Shown here: positions 1 to 56,699 of the stretch, in pieces
Layout: each line of letters begins with the position of its first letter
How positions within the stretch are numbered: the stretch's first letter is position 1
Assembly: GCF_046119375.1 (NCBI RefSeq)
Contig: NW_027362762.1
Location: forward strand, 129,704,001 to 129,768,000
From: Phyllobates terribilis
Taxonomy: Eukaryota
Length of the DNA: 64,000 nucleotides
Direction of reading: 5' to 3'
Made by a program: the position numbers and the translations under genes
The notes under the pieces: model-generated
What the model saw: the letters and a program-made list of their open reading frames with translations, nothing else
The model's database searches: none
What the model was told of the DNA's origin: nothing

Positions 1-1320
1 GGTCGTACTAACGCTATCAAACTCTATCACAAACAAGAACCTGGTGAAACTATAGAGTAGTACGATTTCACCAGTTTATACCCGTACGTCAATAAAACAA
101 AAGTGTACCCCATAGGACATCCTAAAATAATCTATGACCACTTTGGTTATATCAAGCAGTACTTTGGCATCGCCAAAGTGAAAGTCTACCCGCCCAGGGA
201 TTTGTTTTTCCCTGTGCTCCCTGTTGAAATGAACAAAAAATTGATCTTCCCCCTCTGTCACACATGCGCGTTGCATTCAGAAGCGGATCCCTGCGCTCAT
301 TCAGAGGAAGAGAGTGCTCTGACGGGTACGTGGTGCACGATAGAGATAGAAATGGCTTTGGAGAAGGGTTACAGACTCACACACATTTACGAGGTGTGGC
401 ATTTTGAGGAGACGATGACCGATCTATTTGCGCAGTACATCGATTTACATCTTAGACACAAACAGGAAGCCTCGGGGTATCCCTCGTGGTGCACGGACGA
501 AACCAAGAAAAAAGACTATGTAGCCGCCTATCTTGAAAAAGAAGGTATAAAGTTAGACCCCGATCATATAGAACCAAATTCAGCTAAAAGACAAATCGCC
601 AAACTATTCCTAAACTCTTTATGGGGAAAGTTTGCGCAGCGTTCTAATTTACCTACCACCAGCGTCGTGAACAACGCTGATGAACTCTTTGAGTATGCCT
701 TTCTCCCGTACTATGAGATTTCTGAGTTAAACTTTATCAGCGACGATACGGCGACTGTCAATTGGAAATACACAAAAGAACACCGCACCGTCAACAAAAA
801 CACCAACATTTTCATTGCATGCTTCACTACAGCTTATGCGCGCTTAGAATTGTACACCCTTCTAGACAAACTGCAGGAGCGCTGTCTTTACCACGACACA
901 GACTCCGTCATTTTCGTAAGTCGTGACGGCGAGTGGCAGCCTCCCTTAGGTGATTACCTGGGTGAACTCACCAGCGAAATACCCCAGGGGAGTCACATCA
1001 CAGAATTTGTATCCGCCGGTCCAAAAACTTACGGCTACAAATTAAACACGGGTGACACGATCTTGAAAGTGAAAGGTATCACGCTTAATATCGCTAACGC
1101 TGGCGTTATCAATTTCGACAGTCTAAAAGATTTAGTGTTAGCTTACATGAACTCTGCAGATCCTGGAAATGAAAAGACGATCGTTGTAGAGCAGAATGGT
1201 ATTGTGCGGATCAAAAAGTACTGGGATATTGTAACGCGACCCCTACGCAAAACTCAACGCTGCGACTATACCAAGAGGCAGTTGTTTGATGACTTTACTT
1301 CTTTACCCTACGGGTATTAA
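1..1320 (+). pseudogene. polB: Protein-primed family B DNA polymerase (pPolB), C-terminal part; in-frame TAG at 58-60
   Basis: Frame 1 reads GRTNAIKLY...IE*YDFTSLYPYV (motif A DxxSLYP), KLFLNSLWGKF (motif B), LYHDTDS (motif C), GPKTYGY, and ends LPYGY*. The ORF track start at 103 is an internal GTG after the stop. Confidence 0.93.
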
Positions 1321-1505
1321 CGATGAATTCCCTTTTCTTCAAACAACTGACATACCTTTATCTCCGCTACAGGTGCAGAATACGCTACTGACTACCGTAC
1401 CATCAAACGACCGACGCGTAGCTATAGATAGAGTCGTGAAGTCTAAAGAGAAACGTGCTCGACGAATTTACTCCGTGGCGCTACAGGTCTTAAACATACA
1501 ACATC

Positions 1506-1921
1506 ATGGATCCCCGGTTACAACACCCATTCTCATGCATTCTAGCGGGCCCCTCTAACTCAGGAAAATCCTATTTTGTCAAACAGGTTTTAGCTCACGC
1601 GACAACACATTTATCTCACAAACCCGATAATATTGTTTGGTTTTATTCTTGTTGGCAAAAAATGTACGATAAATTGAGTCATTCCTTCCCCAGTATTCGT
1701 TTTATCGAAGGTTTGCCGCAGACGTTTGTAGATGACGAACTATTCCCGCCTGACATGATCAACTTGGCGGTGGAGGACGATCTCATGGAGGCCGCTAGCT
1801 GTAATTCAGAACTGGAAAAAGCATTTACTAAATACGTTCATCATAGAAGCTTGAGCCTGTTCTATTTGGTTCAAAATGTTTTTTGTCAGGGAAAAAAGAG
1901 TAGAACCATCACCTTGAATAC
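1506..1921 (+). pseudogene. A32/FtsK-like DNA packaging ATPase, 3'-truncated
   Basis: Walker A GPSNSGKS, Walker B-like AVEDDLM, then FTKYVHHRSLSLFYLVQNVF and SRTITLN, typical of Maverick ATPases. Similarity stops abruptly at ~1921, far short of a full ATPase. Confidence 0.88.
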
Positions 1922-2109
1922 CTTTTTCCATTTCTTGATTTGTGTATACCTCTAAGTGAATCTACAATAAATGTATATTTTTTTAAACACTTTTATTACG
2001 TCATTATTATGAACACTACAGAATGCTAACCCTAGGGATCCTGGGACTGCCTTTTCTCACAAAAACATGTCTTGACATGTTTTTCTTACATACGGCGCCT
2101 ACACATTAA

Positions 2110-2425
2110 CCTACAACCTTGGGTGAAGGGCATGTGGGCGGTCATGGGGGACGTAACAGAGGCTGAACTTTAACTGCTTCCGGGGCGGGGACGGAACTGA
2201 CGTAACAGATATTGGACACACATAGGGGCGGTAAGGGTTGGCTTCCGGGGGCGGGGACGGAACTGACGTAACAGGTATTGACACACATAGGGGTGGAGAA
2301 TGGGGAGGAGAGGGGAGGGGTTTAGACCGGAAGTGGATGCAGGACAGATGCCAAAAAGGGGCGGGGCACCTGTCAAAAACCGGAAGTGGACGTGTTGACG
2401 AGAGGTGGGTGCTCTTACTACTACT
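2110..2425. repeat. Putative Maverick terminal inverted repeat (right copy) with internal ~66-bp direct repeat
   Basis: GC-rich; two copies of CTTCCGGGG(G)CGGGGACGGAACTGACGTAACAG (2177, 2242); ends in ACTACTACT. The partner TIR is not in the window, so the inner boundary is a guess. Confidence 0.7.
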
Positions 2426-5400
2426 CATATTCCTATGAGAAGTAGATGAAATATGTTCCTGGGCATGTGTATTTGTGATATTTCACCCATAATCCCCAAA
2501 CAGAACAATAGTTATACCCATATTCCTATGAGAAGTAGATGAAATATGTTTCTGGGCATTTGTATTTGTGATATTTCACCCATAATCCCCATACACAACA
2601 ATGGTTATATACTTATTCCTATGAGAAGTAGATGAAAAATGTTCCTTGGCATGTGTATTTGTGATATTTCACCCATAATCCCCATACAGAACAATGGTTA
2701 TACACATATTCCTATAAGAAGTAGATGAAATATGTTCCTGGGCATGTGTATTTGTGATATTTCACCCATAATCCCCATACAGAACAATAGTTATACTCAT
2801 ATTCCTATGAGAAGTAGATGAAATATGTTCCTTGGCATGTGTATTTGTGATATTTCACCCATAATCCCCATACAGAACAATGGTTATATACATATTCCTA
2901 TGAGAAGTAGATGAAATATGTTCCTGGGCATGTGTATTTGTGATATTTCACCCATAATCCCCATACAGAACAATAGTTATACCCATATTCCTATTGAATG
3001 TAGATGAAATATGTTCCTGGGCATGTGTATTTGTGATATTTCACTCATAATCCCCATACAGAACAATAGTTATACCCATATTCCTATGAGAAGTAGATGA
3101 AATATGTTCCTGGGCATGTGTATTTGTGATATTATACCCATAATCCCCATACAGAACAATGGTTATACCCATATTCCTATTGAATGTAGATGAAATATGT
3201 TCCTGGGCATGTGTATTTGTGATATTTCATCCATAATCCCCATACAGAACAATAGTTATACCCATATTCCTATGAGAAGTAGATGAAGTATGTTCCTGGG
3301 CATGTGTATTTGTGATATTTTACCCATAATCCCCATACAGAACAATAGTTATACCCATATTCCTATGAGAAGTAGATGAAATATGTTCCTGGGCATGTGT
3401 ATTTGTGATATTTCACCCATAATCCCCATACAGAACAATAGTTATACCCATATTCCTATGAGAAGTAGATGAAATATGTTTCTGGGCATTTGTATTTGTG
3501 ATATTTCACCCATAATCCCCAAAGAGAACAATAGTTATACCCATATTCCTATGAGAAGTAGATGAAATATGTTCCTGGGCATGTGTATTTGTGATATTTT
3601 ACCCATAATCCCCATACAGAACAATAGTTATACCCATATTCCTATGAGAAGTAGATGAAATATGTTCCTGGGCATGTGTATTTGTGATATTTCACCCATA
3701 ATCCCCATACAGAACAATAGTTATACCCATATTCCTATGAGAAGTAGATGAAATATGTTTCTGGGCATTTGTATTTGTGATATTTCACCCATAATCCCCA
3801 AAGAGAACAATAGTTATACCCATATTCCTATGAGAAGTAGATGAAATATGTTCCTTGGCATGTGTATTTGTGATATTTCACCTATAATCCCCATACAGTA
3901 CAATGGTTATATACATATTCCTATGAGAAGTAGATGAAATATGTTCCTGGGCATGTGTATTTGTGATATTTCACCCATAATCCCCATACAGAACAATAGT
4001 TATACCCATATTCCTATGAGAAGTAGATGAAATATGTTCCTGGGCATGTGTATTTGTGATATTTTACCCATAATCCCCATACAGAACAATAGTTATACCC
4101 ATATTCCTATGAGAAGTAGATGAAATATGTTCCTGGGCATGTGTATTTGTGATATTTCACCCATAATCCCCATACAGAACAATAGTTATACCCATATTCC
4201 TATGAGAAGTAGATGAAATATGTTCCTGGGCATGTGTATTTGTGATATTTCACCTAGAATCCCCATACAGTACAATAGTTATACCCATATTCCTATGAGA
4301 AGTAGATGAAGTATGTTCCTGGGCATGTGTATTTGTGATATTTTACCCATAATCCCCATACAGAACAATAGTTATACCCATATTCCTATGAGAAGTAGAT
4401 GAAATATGTTCCTGGGCATGTGTATTTGTGATATTTCACCCATAATCCCCATACAGAACAATAGTTATACCCATATTCCTATGAGAAGTAGATGAAATAT
4501 GTTTCTGGGCATTTGTATTTGTGATATTTCACCCATAATCCCCAAAGAGAACAATAGTTATACCCATATTCCTATGAGAAGTAGATGAAATATGTTCCTT
4601 GGCATGTGTATTTGTGATATTTCACCTATAATCCCCATACAGTACAATGGTTATATACATATTCCTATGAGAAGTAGATGAAATATGTTCCTGGGCATGT
4701 GTATTTGTGATATTTCACCCATAATCCCCATACAGAACAATAGTTATACCCATATTCCTATGAGAAGTAGATGAAATATGTTCCTGGGCATGTGTATTTG
4801 TGATATTACACCCATAATCCCCATACAGAAAAATGGTTATACCCATATTCCTATTGAATGTAGATGAAATATGTTCCTGGGCATGTGTATTTGTGATATT
4901 TCACCCATAATCCCCACACAGAACAATAGTTATACCCATATTCCAATGAGAAGTAGATGAAGTATGTTCCTGGGCATGTGTATTTGTGATATTTCACCCA
5001 TAATCCCCATACAGAACAATAGTTATACCCATATTCCTATGAGAAGTAGATGAAATATGTTCCTGGGCATGTGTATTTGTGATATTTCACCCATAACCCC
5101 CAACAGAACAATAGTTATACCCATATTCCTATGAGAAGAAGATGAAGTATGTTCCTGGGCATGTGTATTTGTGATATTTCACCCATAATCCCCATACAGA
5201 ACAATAGTTATACCCATATTTCTATCAGAAGAAGATGAAGTATGTTCCTTGGCATGTGTATTTGTGATTTTTCACCCATAATCCCCATACAGAACAATAG
5301 TTATACCCATATTGCTATCAGAAGTAGATGAAGTATGTTCCTGGGCATGTGTATTTGTGATATTTCACCCATAATCCCCATACAGAACAATAATTATACC

Positions 5401-5480
5401 TATATTCCTATGAGATGTTGATGAGATATATCACCAGGCGTGTGTAACCCCGATATTCTACACATAATCCCAAATAGTTA
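2426..5480. repeat. 93-bp tandem satellite, ~32 homogeneous copies plus a degenerate last unit
   Basis: Unit CATATTCCTATGAGAAGTAGATGAAATATGTTCCTGGGCATGTGTATTTGTGATATTTCACCCATAATCCCCATACAGAACAATAGTTATACC starts at 2426, 2519, 2612 and continues to ~5401. Confidence 0.97.
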
Positions 5481-17502: not shown

Positions 17503-17555
17503 GTCGCCATATCGTCATCATTTTTTTTTTCTTTAATTTTGAAAAAATCCCAACC

Positions 17556-17745
17556 CTATTACAACCCTAACCCAACCCTAACCCCAGCCCAACCCTAACC
17601 CTAGCCCAACCCTAAACCTAGCCATACCCTAGCCCACCCCTTACCCTAGCCCAACCCTAACCCTAGCCCAACCCTAACCCTAGCCATACCCTAGCCCACC
17701 CCTAACCCTAGCCCAACCCTAACCCTAGCACAACCCCAACCCTAG
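17556..17745. repeat. Telomere-like variant hexamer array (CCCTAA/CCCTAG/CCCAA)
   Basis: Repeated ~18-bp unit AACCCTAACCCTAGCCC. Confidence 0.9.
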
Positions 17746-21560: not shown

Positions 21561-21917
21561 GGAGCCTTTCTGCAGCATTGGGCCCTGCAGCCCCAGCCAG
21601 ATTAGTATTAGCCTATTTTTTGCAGCCTCATCTATTGCATTGTAGGTTACCTTCCTACATTGTAATAGCTACAAAAAGTTTGTGATACTATCGTTATTAC
21701 ATCTTTAGGCACATCCAGTGTCTTTTTGTGACAAAAAAAAACCTAAATAAAGTTCACCAAACACTCCACTTTACAGTTGTGTAGGCCACATTAGCTCATA
21801 TTAAAGTCTAGTCCACACTTTATAAAATTAGTGTTTCTTATACCTGTTAGCAGCTGTTCAGGAATAAGCACACTAAGCCCTTAGTACTTTTCTGCCTATC
21901 TTTATCAGTCTACCAAG

Positions 21918-24900
21918 ATGAAGAAGGCAGGGAGTAAGGCATGTGGGCGTGGGCGTGGGCGTGGAGTTTCTGCAGGGAGAGGACGTGAGGATTCTGTGCC
22001 TGCAGAGAGAGGACGTGGGGATTCTGTGCCTGCTGCGGGCACCAGTGACTCAGCATCCCCCAGTTTTACCAGGGAACAGTCCTTTATGCGCAGCTTTGTA
22101 GGAGCTAGCCGTACCCCACTGCTGCGCGAGGACCAAATTGAAGCCGTTGTCGGATGGATGGCAGCTAACGCATCGACTTCAATTAGTTCCAGATCCTCTC
22201 AGGTCCTGAGCACTGAAGAGCACCCATCTGTCTCTTCACCACCTGCCAAATTGCCCAGGCAGTCAGAGAGCCCTGGACAGGAGCCATCTCTACTTCTGTT
22301 CTCTGAATCTCTTGGCTTGGAAAGAGGGGGCCAGCCAAGCAGAATTCTAGAATTTGAAGAAGAGGTAGTATGCAGTGATGCGCAACCGTTTTGTCTCTCT
22401 GAATCTGAAGAGGCGGGTGGGCCAGTGCCTATGGTCAGCAGCACACCTCAGTACGCATCTGATGATGAGACTCAGGTGCCACTTTCTGGTGCGTACTGTG
22501 CTGTCAAGACTACCCAGGAGAAGCAGTTGTTTGAAGAGGGTGGTGTAGATGATGAGGTCCTTGACCCATCATGGCGTGAGGGACAGGAAGGTGGTGGGAG
22601 CAGCTCTGAGGAAGAGATTCCCCGAACGGCCCAAAAAGGAGGGAGAGGGAGGGGGCAGACTTGGTTGCCTGTAGCCTCCACTTCTGCACCCATTAGGAGC
22701 ATGGCTCTTCCAAAATCCAAAGCGGGCGCTCCCAAGACTTGCAGTGCCTGGTCCTTTTTTGACACAGTTGCAGATGACATTTGCTTTGTCAAATGCAAGC
22801 TGTGTAATCAGAAGGTGAAAAGAGGGAAAAGTGTCAGCAACCTCAATACCACAAATATGTGGAAACATGTGCGGACCAAGCACGTGGTGGAGTTACAAAA
22901 ACACACTGAAGACCTAGGCCAACCTACAGCGCCACCTACCACCTCTTCAGCTCGTGTTGTAGCCTCTTCCTCCAGCTCACACACAGCTGGGTCGGCTTCC
23001 TCACAGGATCGCCATGGAAGAATCTCTGGCACTGTTGTACAGAGACACAGTGTAATTCCACCCACAGCACCACTTTCCCAGTCATCCTCACACTCCCAGG
23101 CCAGTCTACAGTCATCGTTAGCACAGGCATGGGAGAAAAGGCGCCCATACTCGGCAAACCACCCCCGAGCACAGGCTCTGAATGCTGGCATTGCTAAACT
23201 ACTGGCCCTTGAAATGCTATCATTCAGGCTGGTGGAGACTGACACATTCCGTAACTTTATGGCATTGGCAGTCCCACAATACAACGTGCCCAGCCGCTTT
23301 TATTTCAGCAGGCAAGCCGTCCCTGCCCTGCAACATCATGTGGAGGGAAAAATTAAACATGCGCTACAAAACGCCGTCAGTAGCAAGGTCCACCTGACCA
23401 CCAATGCGTGGACCAGTAAGCATGGACAGGGACGATACCTTTCCCTCACTGCCCATTGGGTAAATGTTGTGGAGCCGGGTACAAATCTTGAGAGTGGCGC
23501 TGTACGTGTTCTGCCAACTCCAAGGATTGCAGGAATGCAGTCTGTACACATTGACTCCTCCTCATGCTCCAGTTCCTCTGAATCAGCGCTGCAGGAGCCG
23601 TCACGGTCTACCTCCACATCGACCCGTGAACGGTTACCTGTTATGATGACCGATATGAGCACAGCCGTGGCCAAACGTCAACAGGCCGTATTAAAATTAA
23701 TTTCTTTGGGGAATCGAAGCCACACAGCGCAGGAGCTCTGGAATGCCATCAAGCAGCAGAGCGACGTGTGGTTTGTGCCAGCGAATCTCCAGCCAGGCAT
23801 GGTAGTGTGTGACAATGGCCCAAAATCTGGTGGCAGCTCTGGGCCTAGGCAACCTCACTCACATCCCATGTCTGGCACATGTGCTCAACTTGGTCGTGCA
23901 GAGTTTTTTGAGGGACTATCCGGATCTTGATGCACTGCTTCACAAGGTCCGCATAGAGTGCGCTCACTTGCGGCATTCCAGCAATGCAAGATCACGCATT
24001 GCAGCTCTGCAGCGCCGATTACGTCTTCCGGAACATCGCATCATATGTGACCTACCCACCAGGTGGAATTCAACGTTACATATGTTGGAGAGGTTGTGTG
24101 AGCAGCAGGCAGCAGTAATGGAGTACCAGCTGCAGCAGGCGCAAACAAGTCGCAGTGCGCGCCGTTCACACTTCACCACCACTGAGTGGGCCTCTATGAA
24201 GGACATTTGCCACGTTTTGCGTGCCTTCGATTATTCCACGCGGATGGCGAGTGCAGATGATGCACTAGTCAGCATGACTATCCCCCTTATCTGCCTGCTT
24301 GAAAAAACACTGCAAGCACTAAGGGACGAGGTTTTGGAAGAGGTGGAGGATGAGGAGTCACAAATGCCATCTGCTTCTCTACAGTCTGCGCAACGTGGTT
24401 CCTCACAAAGGCCTAGGCAGGGGACACTTTGTGAGGAGGATGAGGAGGAGTCAATGGATGAGGAAGACATCTGTCCAGAGGAGGGAAGTACACAATGCTC
24501 TAGTAGTCAGTATCTAGAGCGAGGGTGGGGTGATGCAGAGCAGGCAGAGATCACGCCTCAAGCAGGGGACAGCGTTTCTTGGCCAGTTGGCAGTCTGCAG
24601 CACATGGTTGATTTCATGCTGCAGTGCCTGAGAAACGACCGCCGCATCGCCCACATTCTCAACACGGCTGATTATTGGGTGTCCACCCTCCTAGATCCTC
24701 GCTACCGGGACAACTTACAAAGCCTCATAACACCGTTGAACCGGGAGCGTAAAATGCGGGAGTACCAAGACGCACTGGTGCATTCCATCATGTTCTCCAT
24801 TCCAACCGAGAGCAGTGCTGCTAGTGCTTTACAAAGCAGCTCAGTGCGTCGAGGCAGTGGAGGAAGCTCTGCACAAAGAGGGAGCAGAAGCAGCGCCTCA

Positions 24901-25305
24901 GCACAAGGCAAGACCAGTATGGCCGAAATGTGGCAAAGTTTTGTGTCCCCGCCGCCACAAATGTCTACACCATCACAGACGGCTCCAGTCAGCAGGAGGC
25001 AATGTTTCCGTCAGATGGTGACAGACTACATGTCTTGCCCTCTTAGTGTACTCCCAGACGGCTCTTCTCCCTTCAAGTTTTGGGTCTGTAAGCTGGATAC
25101 ATGGCCAGAGCTTAGTCAGTATGCATTGGAGGTGCTAGCTTGCCCTGCTGCTAGTGTATTATCGGAACGCGTCTTTAGTGCCGCAGGTGGTGTACTAACA
25201 GACCGTCGCATGCGACTATCCTCCGATAACGTTGACCGGCTTACTTTTCTCAAAATGAACAAGGCCTGGATCTCTCATGAATTTGCCAGTCCTCTTCCAG
25301 AATAA
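21918..25305 (+). pseudogene. Near-intact hAT transposase (~1128 aa): one +1 frameshift (~23820) and first catalytic Asp changed to Asn
   Basis: BED finger WSFF..CKLC..KHVRTKH; HLTTNAWTS (AAT at 23403); VVCDNG; CLAHVLNL; PTRWNST; ASVLSERVFS; ORFs 21918-23930 and 23809-25305 overlap at the frameshift. Confidence 0.95.
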
Positions 25306-52439: not shown

Positions 52440-53180
52440 CCAAAAAAATTTGAGTGTGTCTGTGAGTGTTCAAACACAAATATATCTGTTTAAAAGAGTC
52501 TGGTTTCGGCCAGATAACTAGAACTATGGATTTGCAGTTCCACGGTTCAATTCTCTGCATTATCCACTTTTTTGCCTTTTTTCCATAAAAAAACAGTTTG
52601 AGTGTCTCGCTGACTGTTCAGACACAAATATATCTATTTAAAAAAGTCTGGTATACGCCAGGAAATTAGAACTGTGGTTTTCCTCTTCCATGGTTCAAAT
52701 CTGGGTGTTATCCACCTTTTTGCCTTTTTTACATAAAAAAAAACAGTTTCAGTGTCTCGCTGACTGTTCAGACACAAATATATCTGTTTAAAAAATTCTG
52801 GTGTAGGCCAGAGAACTAGAACTGTGGTTTTGCTCTTCCACGGTTCAAATCTGGGTGTAATCCACCTTTTTGCCTTTTTTACATAAAAAAAAAACAGTTT
52901 CAGTGTCTCGCTGACTGTTCAGACACAAATATATCTGTTTAAAAGATTCTGGTGTAGGCCAGAGAAATAGAACTGTGGTTTTCCTCTTCCACTGTTCAAA
53001 TCTGGGTGTAATCCACCTTTTTGCCTTTTTTACATTAAAAAAAAACAGTTTGAGTGTCTCGCTGACTGTTCAGACACAAATATATCTGTTTAAAAGATTC
53101 TGGTGTAGGCCAGAGAACTAGAACTGTGGTTTTCCTCTTCCACGGTTCTAATCTACTCTTTATTACCCTTTTGCCATTGA
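52440..53180. repeat. ~150-bp tandem repeat x5 upstream of the hAT-C transposase
   Basis: ACAGTTT(G/C)AGTGTCTCGCTGACTGTTCAGACACAAATATATC at 52594, 52744, 52895 and 53046, plus a diverged first copy. Confidence 0.93.
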
Positions 53181-53214
53181 TAGTGCGAGTGTAAGCTATT
53201 TTACTTCATTTACA

Positions 53215-56200
53215 ATGGGCAAGGCGCGTGGCAAGGGACGTGGAACTGGACGTTCTGGTGATGGTGCGTGCAGAGGACGGGGCCGTGGCCAAGGTGAAAA
53301 TGTGCTACAACCAACAGCCACATCTTCTCGCTCCCAGTTCTTGACCGAATTACTAGGGAAGCACACAACAACACCACTATTGCGAACTGATCAGTTGGAA
53401 CAGGTTATTAATTGGATAGCAGATAATACTTCCAGTCACCTGGGCACCACCACCTCCAGTCTGTCTTCCACACGGTCAAGTCTTAGTAGCCGTGAGTCTC
53501 GACCGCATATGCCTCCTCACCCTGATGCTCCTTCCTCCCACCATGCTGAGTGTCGTCAGACAGCAACTGATCCCACAGTTGGACACTCTGAAGAGCTGTT
53601 CACTGGTCCATTTCCATATTTGGGCCCCTCACCTGCTCCGCTTGAAGTGGTGGAAGAGGAGATCCCATGTAGCGATGGCCAAATATTTGAACAGCCACGG
53701 CCACAGGAAGGCGACGCTGGCAATTTGTCACAAGAGGTGGACGATGACGAGACACAATTGCCACGAAGAGAGGAGGAGGACCGTGGTGCAGAAGTGGAAG
53801 AGGAGGAGGTGGTGGATGATCTAGTAACTGACCCAACGTGGCAGGAGGACACGCAGAGCGAGGCCAGCAGCACACAGGGGGAGGGAGGCAGAGTACCCCA
53901 ACAGGCAGGAAGAAGCAGTGTGGTGGCCGCAGACAGAAGGCGGGCAACCGTTCCCCGTAACACCAATACGAGGGACGTTGCCAGTACAACCGGTAGGTCT
54001 TCCAGAGTCTGGAATTTTTTTAAAGACTCTGCTGATAACCCCAAAAAGGCCATTTGTACCACCTGCCAGGCTAGCATCAGCAGGGGTGACAAAACTACCA
54101 GCCTGACCACCACCAGCATGATCAGGCACATGTCAGCAAAGCACCCGACTTTGTGGGGCGAACCCCAGGGTCCACGACCAGTGTCAGCGGGTGTCACCAC
54201 TGCTTCTTCCGCTGTTGTGCATGTAAGAGAACCCCCTGTTGTGCGTGCAAGGCAATCCCCTGTCCATACTGCATGCAAAGATACCCTCTCCTCTCAGTCT
54301 TCACTTGTTATGGCAGTTTCTCAAGAAACAGCATCAACGTCCACGTCCCACCGCAGCGTTCAATTGTCCATATCCCAGACCTTTGAACGAAAGTGCAAAT
54401 TCGCAGCCAAAGCCCCACAGGCCACAGTCCTAAATTTGCACATTTCACGACTGCTTGCGTCGGAAATGCTGCCTTTTAGGCTAGTGGAGACGGAATCCTT
54501 CCGCAACCTTATGGCGGTGGCCGTCCCTCGGTACTCGGTCCCCAGCTGACACTATTTTGCCCGGTGTGCCATCCCCGCACTACACAAGCACGTGTCCCAA
54601 AACATCTGCCGTGCCCTCAACAACGCAGTTACTGGGAGAATCCACCTGACAACGGACACGTGGACAAGTGCTTGTGGCCAGGGACGGTACTTCTCCCTGA
54701 CGGCACACTGGGTAAACATAGTGGAAGCCGGGACCCAGTCGGACCTTGGGACGGAACACATCCTCCCCACACCGAGGATTGCGGGCCCTATGTCAGTCAG
54801 AGTTGCCCCCACAGTGTACAGCTCCTGCGCTTCATCCTCCTCCTCCTCCTCATGTTCAGCCTCCATCTCAGATATCACCACATCAGTTACAAGCTGGAAG
54901 CACTGCAGTACTGCCTCACCCAAGCAGCAACAGGCTGTGCTGAAACTCATAAGCTTAGGTGATAAACCTCACACTGCTTGTGAGTTGTGGACAGCTGTGA
55001 AATAGCAGGCAGATCTGTGGCTGAGACCGCTGAACCTACATCCAGGCATGGTCGTGTGTGACAATGGCCGTAACCTGGTGGCGGCTCTGAGGCGAGGCGA
55101 GATCACACAAATACTATGCCTGGCTCATGTGCTTAACCTCGTGGTTCAGCGGTTTCTTAAATCGTACCCCGAGTTGCCAGCTCTGCTCATCAAAGTACGC
55201 CGCCTGTCAGCTCATTTTCGGAAGTCGGCTACAGCTTCCGCCGCCCTTGCTGTGTTGCAGCAGCGTTTGCAGCTTCCGACTGGTGTGTGATGTCCCCACA
55301 CGTTGGAACTCTACCCTCCACATGTTGCAAAGGATTTGTGAGCAGAAGAGAGCAGTTGTGGAGTACCAGCTGCAACAAGGCCGTCGATATTCAGGTCAGA
55401 CTCCACACATAAGTCCTCAGGAGTGGACCTGGATGTCTGACATATGTACCATCCTGACAAACTTTGAGGAGTACACCAAGATGGTGAGTGGTGATGACGC
55501 CATCATTAGCGTCAGCATCCCACTTGTCTGTCTTTTGCAACACTCCCTGCAGAGAATTAAAGAGGAGGCATTGCAGCCAGAGTATGATGAGATGGATCAA
55601 GAAGCTGTAGTGGGCGATTACACACAGCCCAGCCTCATCTCATCCCAACGTGCATTGGGGGACAATGAGGGAGAGGAGGAGGAGGAGGAAGAACAAGAGC
55701 TGGTATCATGCGCTGTAGATGGTAGTACCTGTACAACTGTCATACCGTCGGTTCAGCGTGGGTGGCCTGAGGACAGGGGGAAGGAGGAGGAGGAGAGCAT
55801 GGTCAGTCGTCATCTTGGTGAGGACACGGAAGTCTTGCCCGTTACCAGTCTGGCACGCATGGCTGACTTTATGTTACGCTGCCTTAACCGTGACCCTCGC
55901 GTTGTCAAAATGTTGGGTGACAGTCATTACTGGTTGGTGACGCTTTTAGACCCCCGCTACAAGGAGAACTTTCACTCTCTTATTCCTGAGGTGGAGAAGT
56001 CTACAAAAATGGGGCAGTACCAGAAGGCCCTTGCTGCAGAACTGTTAAAAAACTTCCCATCTGAACACGCTAGCGGCAGAGGTCACAGTTCGTTGCCCAA
56101 CCAAGGCGTACAGGCGAGAGAGACGCAACTCCAATCCAGCAGAGGCAGGGGAACACTGTCAATGTTCTGGGACAGTTTTCTGACACCCGCCCAGCTTACA

Positions 56201-56560
56201 GGCCCTGAGGTGCGGGGTACTCTCACAAGGAGTGGAAAGTTTCAAAAGATGGTGAGGGAGTACCTTGCCGACCGTACCAGCGTCCTCCGTGATTCCTCTG
56301 TGCCTTTTAATTATTGGGTATCCAAGCTGGACACTTGGAATGAACTCGCTCTGTACACCTTGGAGGTCCTAGCCTGCCCTGCCGCTAGCGTGTTATCGGA
56401 GCGTGTTTTTAGTGCCGCTGGGGGAATTATAACTGATAAGCGCACTCGCTTGTCAAATGACAATGCTGACAAGCTGACCCTTATCAAAATGAACAAGGGC
56501 TGGATTGGGCCAGACTTCTCATCACCACCAAATGACAGCAGAGTAAGAAAGTCAAATCCA
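53215..56560 (+). pseudogene. Full-length hAT transposase pseudogene (two nonsense codons, one frameshift)
   Basis: BED finger VWNFF..CTTC..RHMSAKH; HLTTDTWTS; VVCDNG; CLAH; PTRWNST; SERVFS; TGA at 54547, TAG at 55003, ~8-bp deletion near 55277. Confidence 0.95.
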
Positions 56561-56699
56561 CTGTGTTATTTCGAGAGGTCTATTCCCATGCACCGCTTCA
56601 CACCCACACATGGGTATACGCTTCCTCATTTTGGCTGTTTTTTGCTCTTCTCCTTATCCTCAGCCTCCACCACCACTATACCACCAGGTTGACCGTGGT

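What the first reader, a model, noticed from the sequence alone, without database searches (positions are those of the whole stretch)
1..2425. Endogenous Maverick/adintovirus with lightly decayed polB whose gene modules are cut off in mid-ATPase and fused to the terminus
Seen: pPolB has only one stop in 1320 bp. The ATPase breaks off after SRTITLN at ~1921, followed by an AT-rich segment with AATAAA (1966) and then the terminal repeat. Known: complete vertebrate Mavericks also encode integrase, protease and capsid genes. Inference: this is a relatively young non-autonomous deletion derivative that kept the replication gene and a terminus, so it could be replicated or packaged in trans by an intact sibling.
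Basis: partly seen in the sequence, partly recalled or inferred. Interest (0 to 1): 0.7.

Follow-up and report, generated by a model that had tools for sequence, protein, structure and literature searches.

The report
Mirror-image defective Maverick virus fossil
This is one arm of a 7.9-kb, single-copy remnant of a virus-like Maverick element with broken genes, whose two ends are mirror copies of the same end; it likely arose when a copying DNA strand folded back on itself, and about a quarter of its relatives in this genome show the same mirrored-end layout.

Summary
The window holds the right arm of a 7,946-bp element with a 6-bp target duplication. The left arm, upstream of the window, is an inverted copy of the same polB-ATPase end (99.0% over 2,192 bp). 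The strand switch lies on a native 8-bp inverted repeat. Integrase, protease and capsid genes are absent. polB was not kept: it lacks about 504 of 1,355 codons, and both arms share the stop. The 'AT-rich segment' is part of the terminal repeat. The ATPase-repeat junction is single-copy, so this is no amplified non-autonomous family.

The wider pattern is the point: 16 of 61 resolved family members have the same end at both termini, with no junction shared among the 14 mapped in full, and 15 of the 16 have target duplications. Divergence patterns suggest most formed at or near integration, like copy-back or snap-back defective viral genomes. For this copy, repair in place remains a close rival. 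Nine literature searches found no description in Mavericks; the layout is known in mariner MITEs. This scan has noted fold-back Polintons before in other genomes.

The parts
1..1922 (+). Right arm of the inverted duplication. It begins upstream of the window; the whole element is G000:C2:129698480-129706425 = L011 1480-9425.
   Evidence: L011 6731-8922 matches L011 5634-3443 inverted, 22 differences in 2,192 bp, no gaps
1..1320 (+). C-terminal part of the protein-primed polymerase gene; about 504 N-terminal codons lost at the fold-back upstream
   Evidence: Pfam PF03175; 73-77% identical to frog proteins; codon count
58..60 (+). Premature stop, present in both arms and private to this element
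   Evidence: 13 of 13 sibling stretches covering the codon are sense; the exact 27-mer occurs twice in the genome, once in each arm
1506..1922 (+). First 139 codons of the ATPase gene (P-loop GPSNSGKS); packaging role inferred from position and recalled motifs
   Evidence: weak profile hits only (Pfam AAA_16 E 0.005; PHROG ATPase E 0.016)
1920..1922 (.). Junction J3: ATPase joined to the inside of the terminal repeat over 3 bases of overlap; about 1.45 kb missing relative to the native end
   Evidence: single copy
1920..2425 (-). Right terminal inverted repeat, inner ~100 bp missing, 11-bp internal deletion, ends in (ACT)3; includes the AT-rich segment and AATAAA 1966
   Evidence: alignment of 22 repeats; 95.3% to the left repeat
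2426..2431 (+). 6-bp target site duplication CATATT (other copy at L011 1474-1479)
2422..5429 (+). Host 93-bp tandem array into which the element inserted; the array continues left of the element in the same orientation and phase

Best explanation
The window holds the right arm of a single-copy, gene-broken Maverick derivative whose two ends are inverted copies of the same polB-ATPase end, likely made when a strand copied inward from that end folded back on a native 8-bp inverted repeat and copied itself, probably in a free replicating copy that a helper's integrase then inserted. Shown: 7,946 bp; both termini; 6-bp target duplication; arms 99.0% alike; three junctions (fold-back with 8-base overlap, ~850-bp deletion near the centre, ~1.45-kb deletion at window 1920); no integrase, protease or capsid genes; polB truncated and stopped. 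Inferred: (1) synthesis started at the polB-side terminus, stalled about 5.1 kb in and self-primed across a 65-nt loop; (2) the template already carried the stop and five other private changes, so it was a defective or decayed copy; (3) integration used integrase supplied in trans; (4) the two deletions came during copying or later, the central one relieving the long palindrome (general knowledge, not tested). It has not multiplied since. It is one of 16 such same-end elements found among 61 resolved family members.
For: Mirror layout and junctions. Native 8-bp inverted repeat with 65-nt loop at the switch, exact in 2 of 4 siblings that held the anchor and the closing helix of the predicted fold in 3 of 4; background about 3 such repeats per kb. 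Family: 35 ordinary, 8 left/left and 5 right/right among 48 marker pairs, plus 10 ordinary and 2 same-end from follow-up. Timing in the family: duplicated interiors are not younger than terminal repeats (pooled divergence ratio 0.83 against 0.72, 14 elements); large insertions inside duplicated arms lie in one arm only in 3 of 3 cases; the two repeats of same-end elements share more rare variants than those of ordinary elements (31 shared/156 differing in 12 elements against 11/153 in 8; Fisher p 0.005, per-element rank test p 0.034), as expected if the whole end was copied before the target duplication was made. Tight fold-backs also occur at C11:254.99, C7:325.48 and C7:104.83 Mb; the arms at C11:254.99 are as diverged as unrelated siblings.
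Against: This copy is the outlier: its arms share 6 private changes against 22 differences (ordinary repeat pairs 3 against 151, Fisher p 0.0005), including a nonsense change, while its two terminal repeats share 0 strictly private changes (2 rare ones) against 12-14 differences. That fits a later duplication in place at least as well. No donor copy with the same stop exists in the assembly. Repeat and arm ages do not differ significantly either way (ratio 0.58 against 0.43, p 0.45). The family statistics rest on small counts, several thresholds were tried, and four elements carry most of the shared-variant signal. One same-end element (C11:276.5 Mb) has arms that differ in a 69-bp length variant, which a single-template copy-back does not explain.
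Confidence: 0.55

Rival explanations
1. Rearrangement in place. A normal element inserted here and decayed; a later break was repaired by fold-back synthesis and a second template switch into the far terminal repeat, deleting about 8.3 kb and duplicating about 3.1 kb in inverted form.
For: 6 private changes including the stop are shared by the arms, none strictly private shared by the two terminal repeats; no donor; short overlaps at all three junctions (8, 3, 3 bases); needs no more events than the favoured model.
Against: Repeat and arm ages are not distinguishable (p 0.45). Across the family the duplications look as old as the insertions, whereas random later breaks should spread through time. 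The CpG share of shared changes is no different from that of arm-specific ones in other elements (21 of 80 against 209 of 727), so 4 CpG changes of 8 here do not prove decay at this locus.
Confidence: 0.36
2. One reading: a simple deletion derivative that kept its polymerase gene and is multiplied in trans as a non-autonomous family.
For: Both termini and the target duplication are intact; plain deletion derivatives exist in the family.
Against: The element is an inverted duplication; polB lacks about 504 codons and has a stop; the junction is single-copy; the centre is single-copy among 40 scored of 200 candidates.
Confidence: 0.03
3. Assembly artefact: a fold-back chimeric read or a misjoin of two family copies.
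For: Palindromes and high-copy repeats are hard to assemble (general knowledge).
Against: The arms differ at 22 sites, 16 of them transitions, and carry different deletions; they share variants seen in no sampled sibling; the flanking array is direct and in phase with a 6-bp duplication, not mirrored; 14 other same-end elements have their own target duplications.
Confidence: 0.04
4. Two independent family copies, one inserted into the other in opposite orientation, then trimmed.
For: Nested copies occur in the family (C2:602.2 Mb).
Against: The arms are twice as close to each other (1.0%) as siblings are (median 2.2%) and share private changes; no inner terminus or inner target duplication at the centre.
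Confidence: 0.02

Closest known systems
Vertebrate Mavericks/Polintons (Barreat and Katzourakis 2021, PMC8097293; passages and section 7 read)
   Same: (AGT)2//(ACT)2 ends, 6-bp target duplication, pPolB-ATPase-small ORF-ORF module; siblings carry the integrase, capsid and protease module pointing away from the first, the layout the paper gives for the cane toad element; native size about 14 kb.
   Different: This copy has lost the second module and carries the first one twice, mirrored. The passages read describe defective copies by stops, frameshifts and insertions, not by duplicated ends. The paper's screen required both integrase and polymerase hits, so it would miss elements like this one.
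Copy-back and snap-back defective viral genomes (review PMC13506859; passages read)
   Same: One genome end copied in reverse complement onto the other end, giving a panhandle or near-palindrome; essential genes lost; occurs alongside plain deletion forms.
   Different: The review places copy-back forms mainly in negative-sense RNA viruses. Here they are DNA, integrated and inherited. Formation by the viral polymerase is inferred, and interference or enrichment is not shown. Similar adenovirus molecules are recalled; the paper could not be opened.
mariner MITEs with one end replaced by the other (Wallau et al. 2014, PMC4161770; passages read)
   Same: Replacement of one end by the other, giving unusually long inverted repeats; the authors call the origin elusive.
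   Different: Those are short cut-and-paste derivatives that amplified into sublineages and always duplicate the 5' part. Here both ends are used (9 left/left, 7 right/right), arms reach 4.6 kb and no junction was seen twice.
Adintoviruses (Starrett et al. 2021, PMC8502044; passages read)
   Same: PF03175-type polymerase, rve integrase and a double-jelly-roll-like capsid gene in siblings.
   Different: OTU domain and Alpha/Beta placement not tested; 'defective' does not occur in that text.

Membership tests
Vertebrate Maverick/Polinton | Protein-primed family B polymerase gene | tested here: met
   PF03175 in both fragments; present but truncated and stopped
Vertebrate Maverick/Polinton | Terminal inverted repeats with (AGT)2//(ACT)2 ends | tested here: met
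Vertebrate Maverick/Polinton | 6-bp target site duplication | tested here: met
   CATATT on both sides
Vertebrate Maverick/Polinton | Retroviral-like integrase in this copy | tested here: not met
   No such sequence in L011 1480-9425; present in siblings (rve E 5.4e-15)
Vertebrate Maverick/Polinton | Major and minor capsid and protease genes in this copy | tested here: not met
   Absent here. In siblings: 439-aa ORF scores 0.99 to Atlas clusters where 14-30% of members carry DJR-like_dom; protease only weak (Peptidase_C5 E 0.005); minor capsid assigned by position only
Vertebrate Maverick/Polinton | A32-like packaging ATPase | tested here: inconclusive
   P-loop present; only weak generic hits, none in solved structures; label rests on gene order in PMC8097293 and recall
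Adintovirus Alpha/Beta classes | OTU domain and polymerase tree placement | not tested
   No tree built; PF03175 match fits the Alpha definition read
Copy-back/snap-back defective viral genome | One end duplicated in reverse complement, with internal strand switch | tested here: met
Copy-back/snap-back defective viral genome | Made by the viral polymerase during free replication | tested here: inconclusive
   Family-level timing favours it; this copy is ambiguous
Copy-back/snap-back defective viral genome | Helper-dependent propagation or interference | not testable with these tools
   No amplification seen in the assembly
Amplified non-autonomous sublineage (MITE-like, Wallau definition) | At least two copies with the same junction and different flanks | tested here: not met
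   1 match for J3; 1 full-length match for the centre among 40 scored

The most novel reading that the evidence does not exclude
Mavericks throw off copy-back and snap-back defective genomes at a high rate during free, protein-primed replication, and these are integrated in trans: about a quarter of this frog family's insertions are such molecules. The germline would then hold a fossil sample of a DNA virus's defective-genome swarm, and its junctions would be direct evidence of how a never-cultured vertebrate Maverick replicates.
Probability: 0.5. Interest if true: 0.72.

Novelty: new variant of a known kind. Interest (0 to 1): 0.5.

Why it matters
The single locus is an ordinary gene-broken remnant. 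The family pattern matters more. Vertebrate Maverick particles have not been observed (abstract of PMC8097293) and their replication is a model, not an observation (recalled). Mirrored-end copies with their own target duplications are what strand-displacement copying from a terminus, with template switches, would leave, and they make the model testable from genomes: junction positions, loop lengths and allele states. They also warn annotators: screens that need both polymerase and integrase miss these forms, and their long inverted arms can be mistaken for true terminal repeats.

Tried and rejected
Read support: contigs of 4 public runs (at most 4 samples, 2 studies) laid on the element and on window 1855-1985 showed no listed contig bridging J3 (8 pieces not shown); such holes prove nothing, and the 'opposite strand' joints only reflect native polB continuing across the 140-bp inverted piece. 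No RNA holder listed on record. CpG argument for decay at this locus: 4 of 8 shared changes are CpG transitions, but the control shows no enrichment, so it was dropped. Two small right/right elements of similar size (C7:325.48, C9:81.15 Mb) were suspected to be one amplified derivative; their junctions differ. Left-end-only hits on unplaced contigs are segmental duplicates (99% over 6 kb with flanks, 3 of about 12 checked) and were not counted. No left- versus right-specific positions were seen in the 514 bp of repeat that the window keeps, so the origin of the right repeat cannot be read directly. The anchor method found no exact left anchor for J2 and J3; their 3-base overlaps come from BLAST ends and loose ends. 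C3:444.68 Mb (divergent subfamily) was left out of the sibling panel and out of the counts in 64 and 67. C1:325.39 Mb has no recoverable right end. Literature: nine full-text searches listed no paper on same-end or copy-back Mavericks; two older papers could not be opened, subscription papers and repeat databases are not held, and no supplements were read, so absence in print is weakly tested. No polymerase tree was built.

Full report
Observation. Window 1-1320 is the C-terminal part of a protein-primed family B polymerase with one stop at 58-60. An ATPase frame starts at 1506 and leaves the family sequence at 1920-1922. The element ends at 2425 in ACTACTACT, followed by a 93-bp tandem array. 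A search of the own genome (10.6 Gb) with window 1780-2080 scored 40 of 463 candidates. Only the window matched over the full length; 38 of the other 39 long hits began at window 1920 and one two bases earlier. So the AT-rich stretch with AATAAA is the inner part of the terminal repeat, whose native length is about 617 bp. The best-scoring named relatives of the polymerase are frog proteins at 73-75% identity, so the host is probably a frog.

The whole element. The upstream stretch (L011) shows a 7,946-bp element at G000:C2:129698480-129706425. CATATT is duplicated on both sides, and the array runs in the same orientation and phase on both flanks. From left to right: a full terminal repeat; on the minus strand an ORF at the PZ position (stop at codon 173 of 250), a 126-aa ORF at the PM position, an open ATPase and the C-terminal part of polB; a short centre; then on the plus strand polB, the cut ATPase and the right repeat (PM and PZ are labels by position from PMC8097293). 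The two arms are inverted copies, 22 differences in 2,192 bp. Mapped on a decayed sibling counted from its polB-side end, the element reads 1-4139, deletion, 4990-5129, strand switch, 5056 down to 1949, deletion, repeat position 497 down to 1. It therefore has the same end twice and nothing of the other module. Siblings carry that module: integrase (rve, E 5.4e-15), a weak adenovirus-type protease hit, a 439-aa ORF near clusters with a double-jelly-roll-like family, and a 255-aa ORF assigned by position. The two modules point away from each other, as reported for the cane toad element.

The switch. The two sides overlap by 8 bases. In siblings these 8 bases form a native inverted repeat with a 65-nt loop: exact in 2 of the 4 siblings that held the anchor, and the closing helix of the predicted DNA fold in 3 of 4. 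Such repeats occur about 3 times per kb, so a random break would rarely land on one. This points to self-priming by a 3' end that folded back (inference). The right-arm polymerase begins at this switch and lacks about 504 of about 1,355 codons.

Copy number. The ATPase-repeat junction has 1 match in the genome at up to 2 mismatches. The centre matched in full only here, among 40 scored of 200 candidates. The stop is absent from 13 of 13 sibling stretches covering it, and its exact 27-mer occurs only in the two arms. The element has not multiplied and no donor is present in this assembly.

The family. Markers just inside each end gave 61 right-end and 80 left-end hits. Of 48 inward-facing pairs within 70 kb, 35 were left/right, 8 left/left and 5 right/right; 45 hits stayed unpaired. 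All 13 same-end pairs were fetched: each is an inverted copy of one end with its own junction, and 12 of 13 have a 6-bp target duplication, one of them with one mismatch. A terminus pattern gave 198 hits, about 100 elements, of which 100 places were listed. Of 17 further ends fetched, 10 resolved as ordinary orientation, 3 belonged to 2 more same-end elements with target duplications, and 4 stayed unresolved; these were read at their ends only. With the window's own element the count is 16 same-end among 61 resolved (26%), 15 with target duplications. Four are tight fold-backs with loops of about 60-150 bases; the rest switch over longer distances. Junctions into the inside of the repeat, like J3, also occur in five other elements, each at a different place.

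When did it happen? For the family, three lines favour formation at or near integration. Duplicated interiors are as diverged as terminal repeats (pooled ratio to sibling diversity 0.83 against 0.72 over 14 elements; ordinary repeat pairs 0.89 over 7). Large insertions inside duplicated arms lie in one arm only, 3 of 3. The two repeats of same-end elements share more rare variants than ordinary pairs, 31 against 156 differences versus 11 against 153 (p 0.005; rank test p 0.034), spread along the repeat though not significant in any third alone. Counts are small and more than one threshold was tried. For this copy the picture is mixed. Its arms share 6 private changes, including the stop, against 22 differences (p 0.0005 against ordinary pairs), so the template had already changed before it was duplicated. 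Its two repeats share 0 strictly private and 2 rare changes against 12-14 differences. Their age does not differ from that of the arms (p 0.45). A CpG signature did not survive its control. I put 0.55 on formation in a free copy from a defective template followed by integration in trans, and 0.36 on repair in place.

Artefact. No public contig was seen to bridge the junction, which is uninformative. Internal evidence argues for a real locus: transition-rich differences between arms, different deletions in each arm, shared private variants, and direct, in-phase flanks with a target duplication.

Comparison. By ends, target duplication and sequence it derives from a vertebrate Maverick, but it fails the gene-content test for an intact member. 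In layout it matches copy-back and snap-back defective genomes as defined in PMC13506859 (passages) and mariner elements with one end replaced by the other (PMC4161770, passages). Nine searches found no report for Mavericks; PMC6431247 (passages) and PMC8502044 (passages) did not mention such forms in what was shown. Earlier notes of this scan describe fold-back Polintons in other genomes; they came after my reading, are unchecked and are not counted as support. None was on record for this genome.

Verdict. The high share of mirrored-end copies in the family is the real lead. Novelty: new variant of a known kind. Interest 0.5.

Noticed in passing
Termini of family members: The number of terminal AGT units varies between 2 and 3, often differing between the two ends of one element, including this one; this would fit slide-back initiation by a protein-primed polymerase (mechanism recalled).
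   Followed up: partly
L058/L059, G000:C11:276.51 Mb: A left/left element with a target duplication whose two arms differ in a 69-bp length variant near the repeat's inner edge, as if two different genomes recombined.
   Followed up: partly
L082-L084, G000:C2:602.23-602.25 Mb: An older left/left element with a target duplication holds a second family copy nested inside it.
   Followed up: partly
L092-L094 (contigs C37, C297): A lone left end about 0.95 kb long is part of a larger unit repeated at 99% identity on unplaced contigs; segmental copies, not new insertions.
   Followed up: partly
L030 1535-5878: A 1,448-codon open retrotransposon pol frame (protease, RT, RNase H, integrase) lies inside a sibling Maverick.
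   Followed up: no
window 21885-25302 and 53152-56689: Two similar pairs of long open frames (681 + 499 and 465 + 533 codons) with an RG-rich start; they look like DNA-transposon genes by recall, not tested.
   Followed up: no
window 17549-17745: Degenerate (AACCCT)-like array far from any contig end.
   Followed up: no
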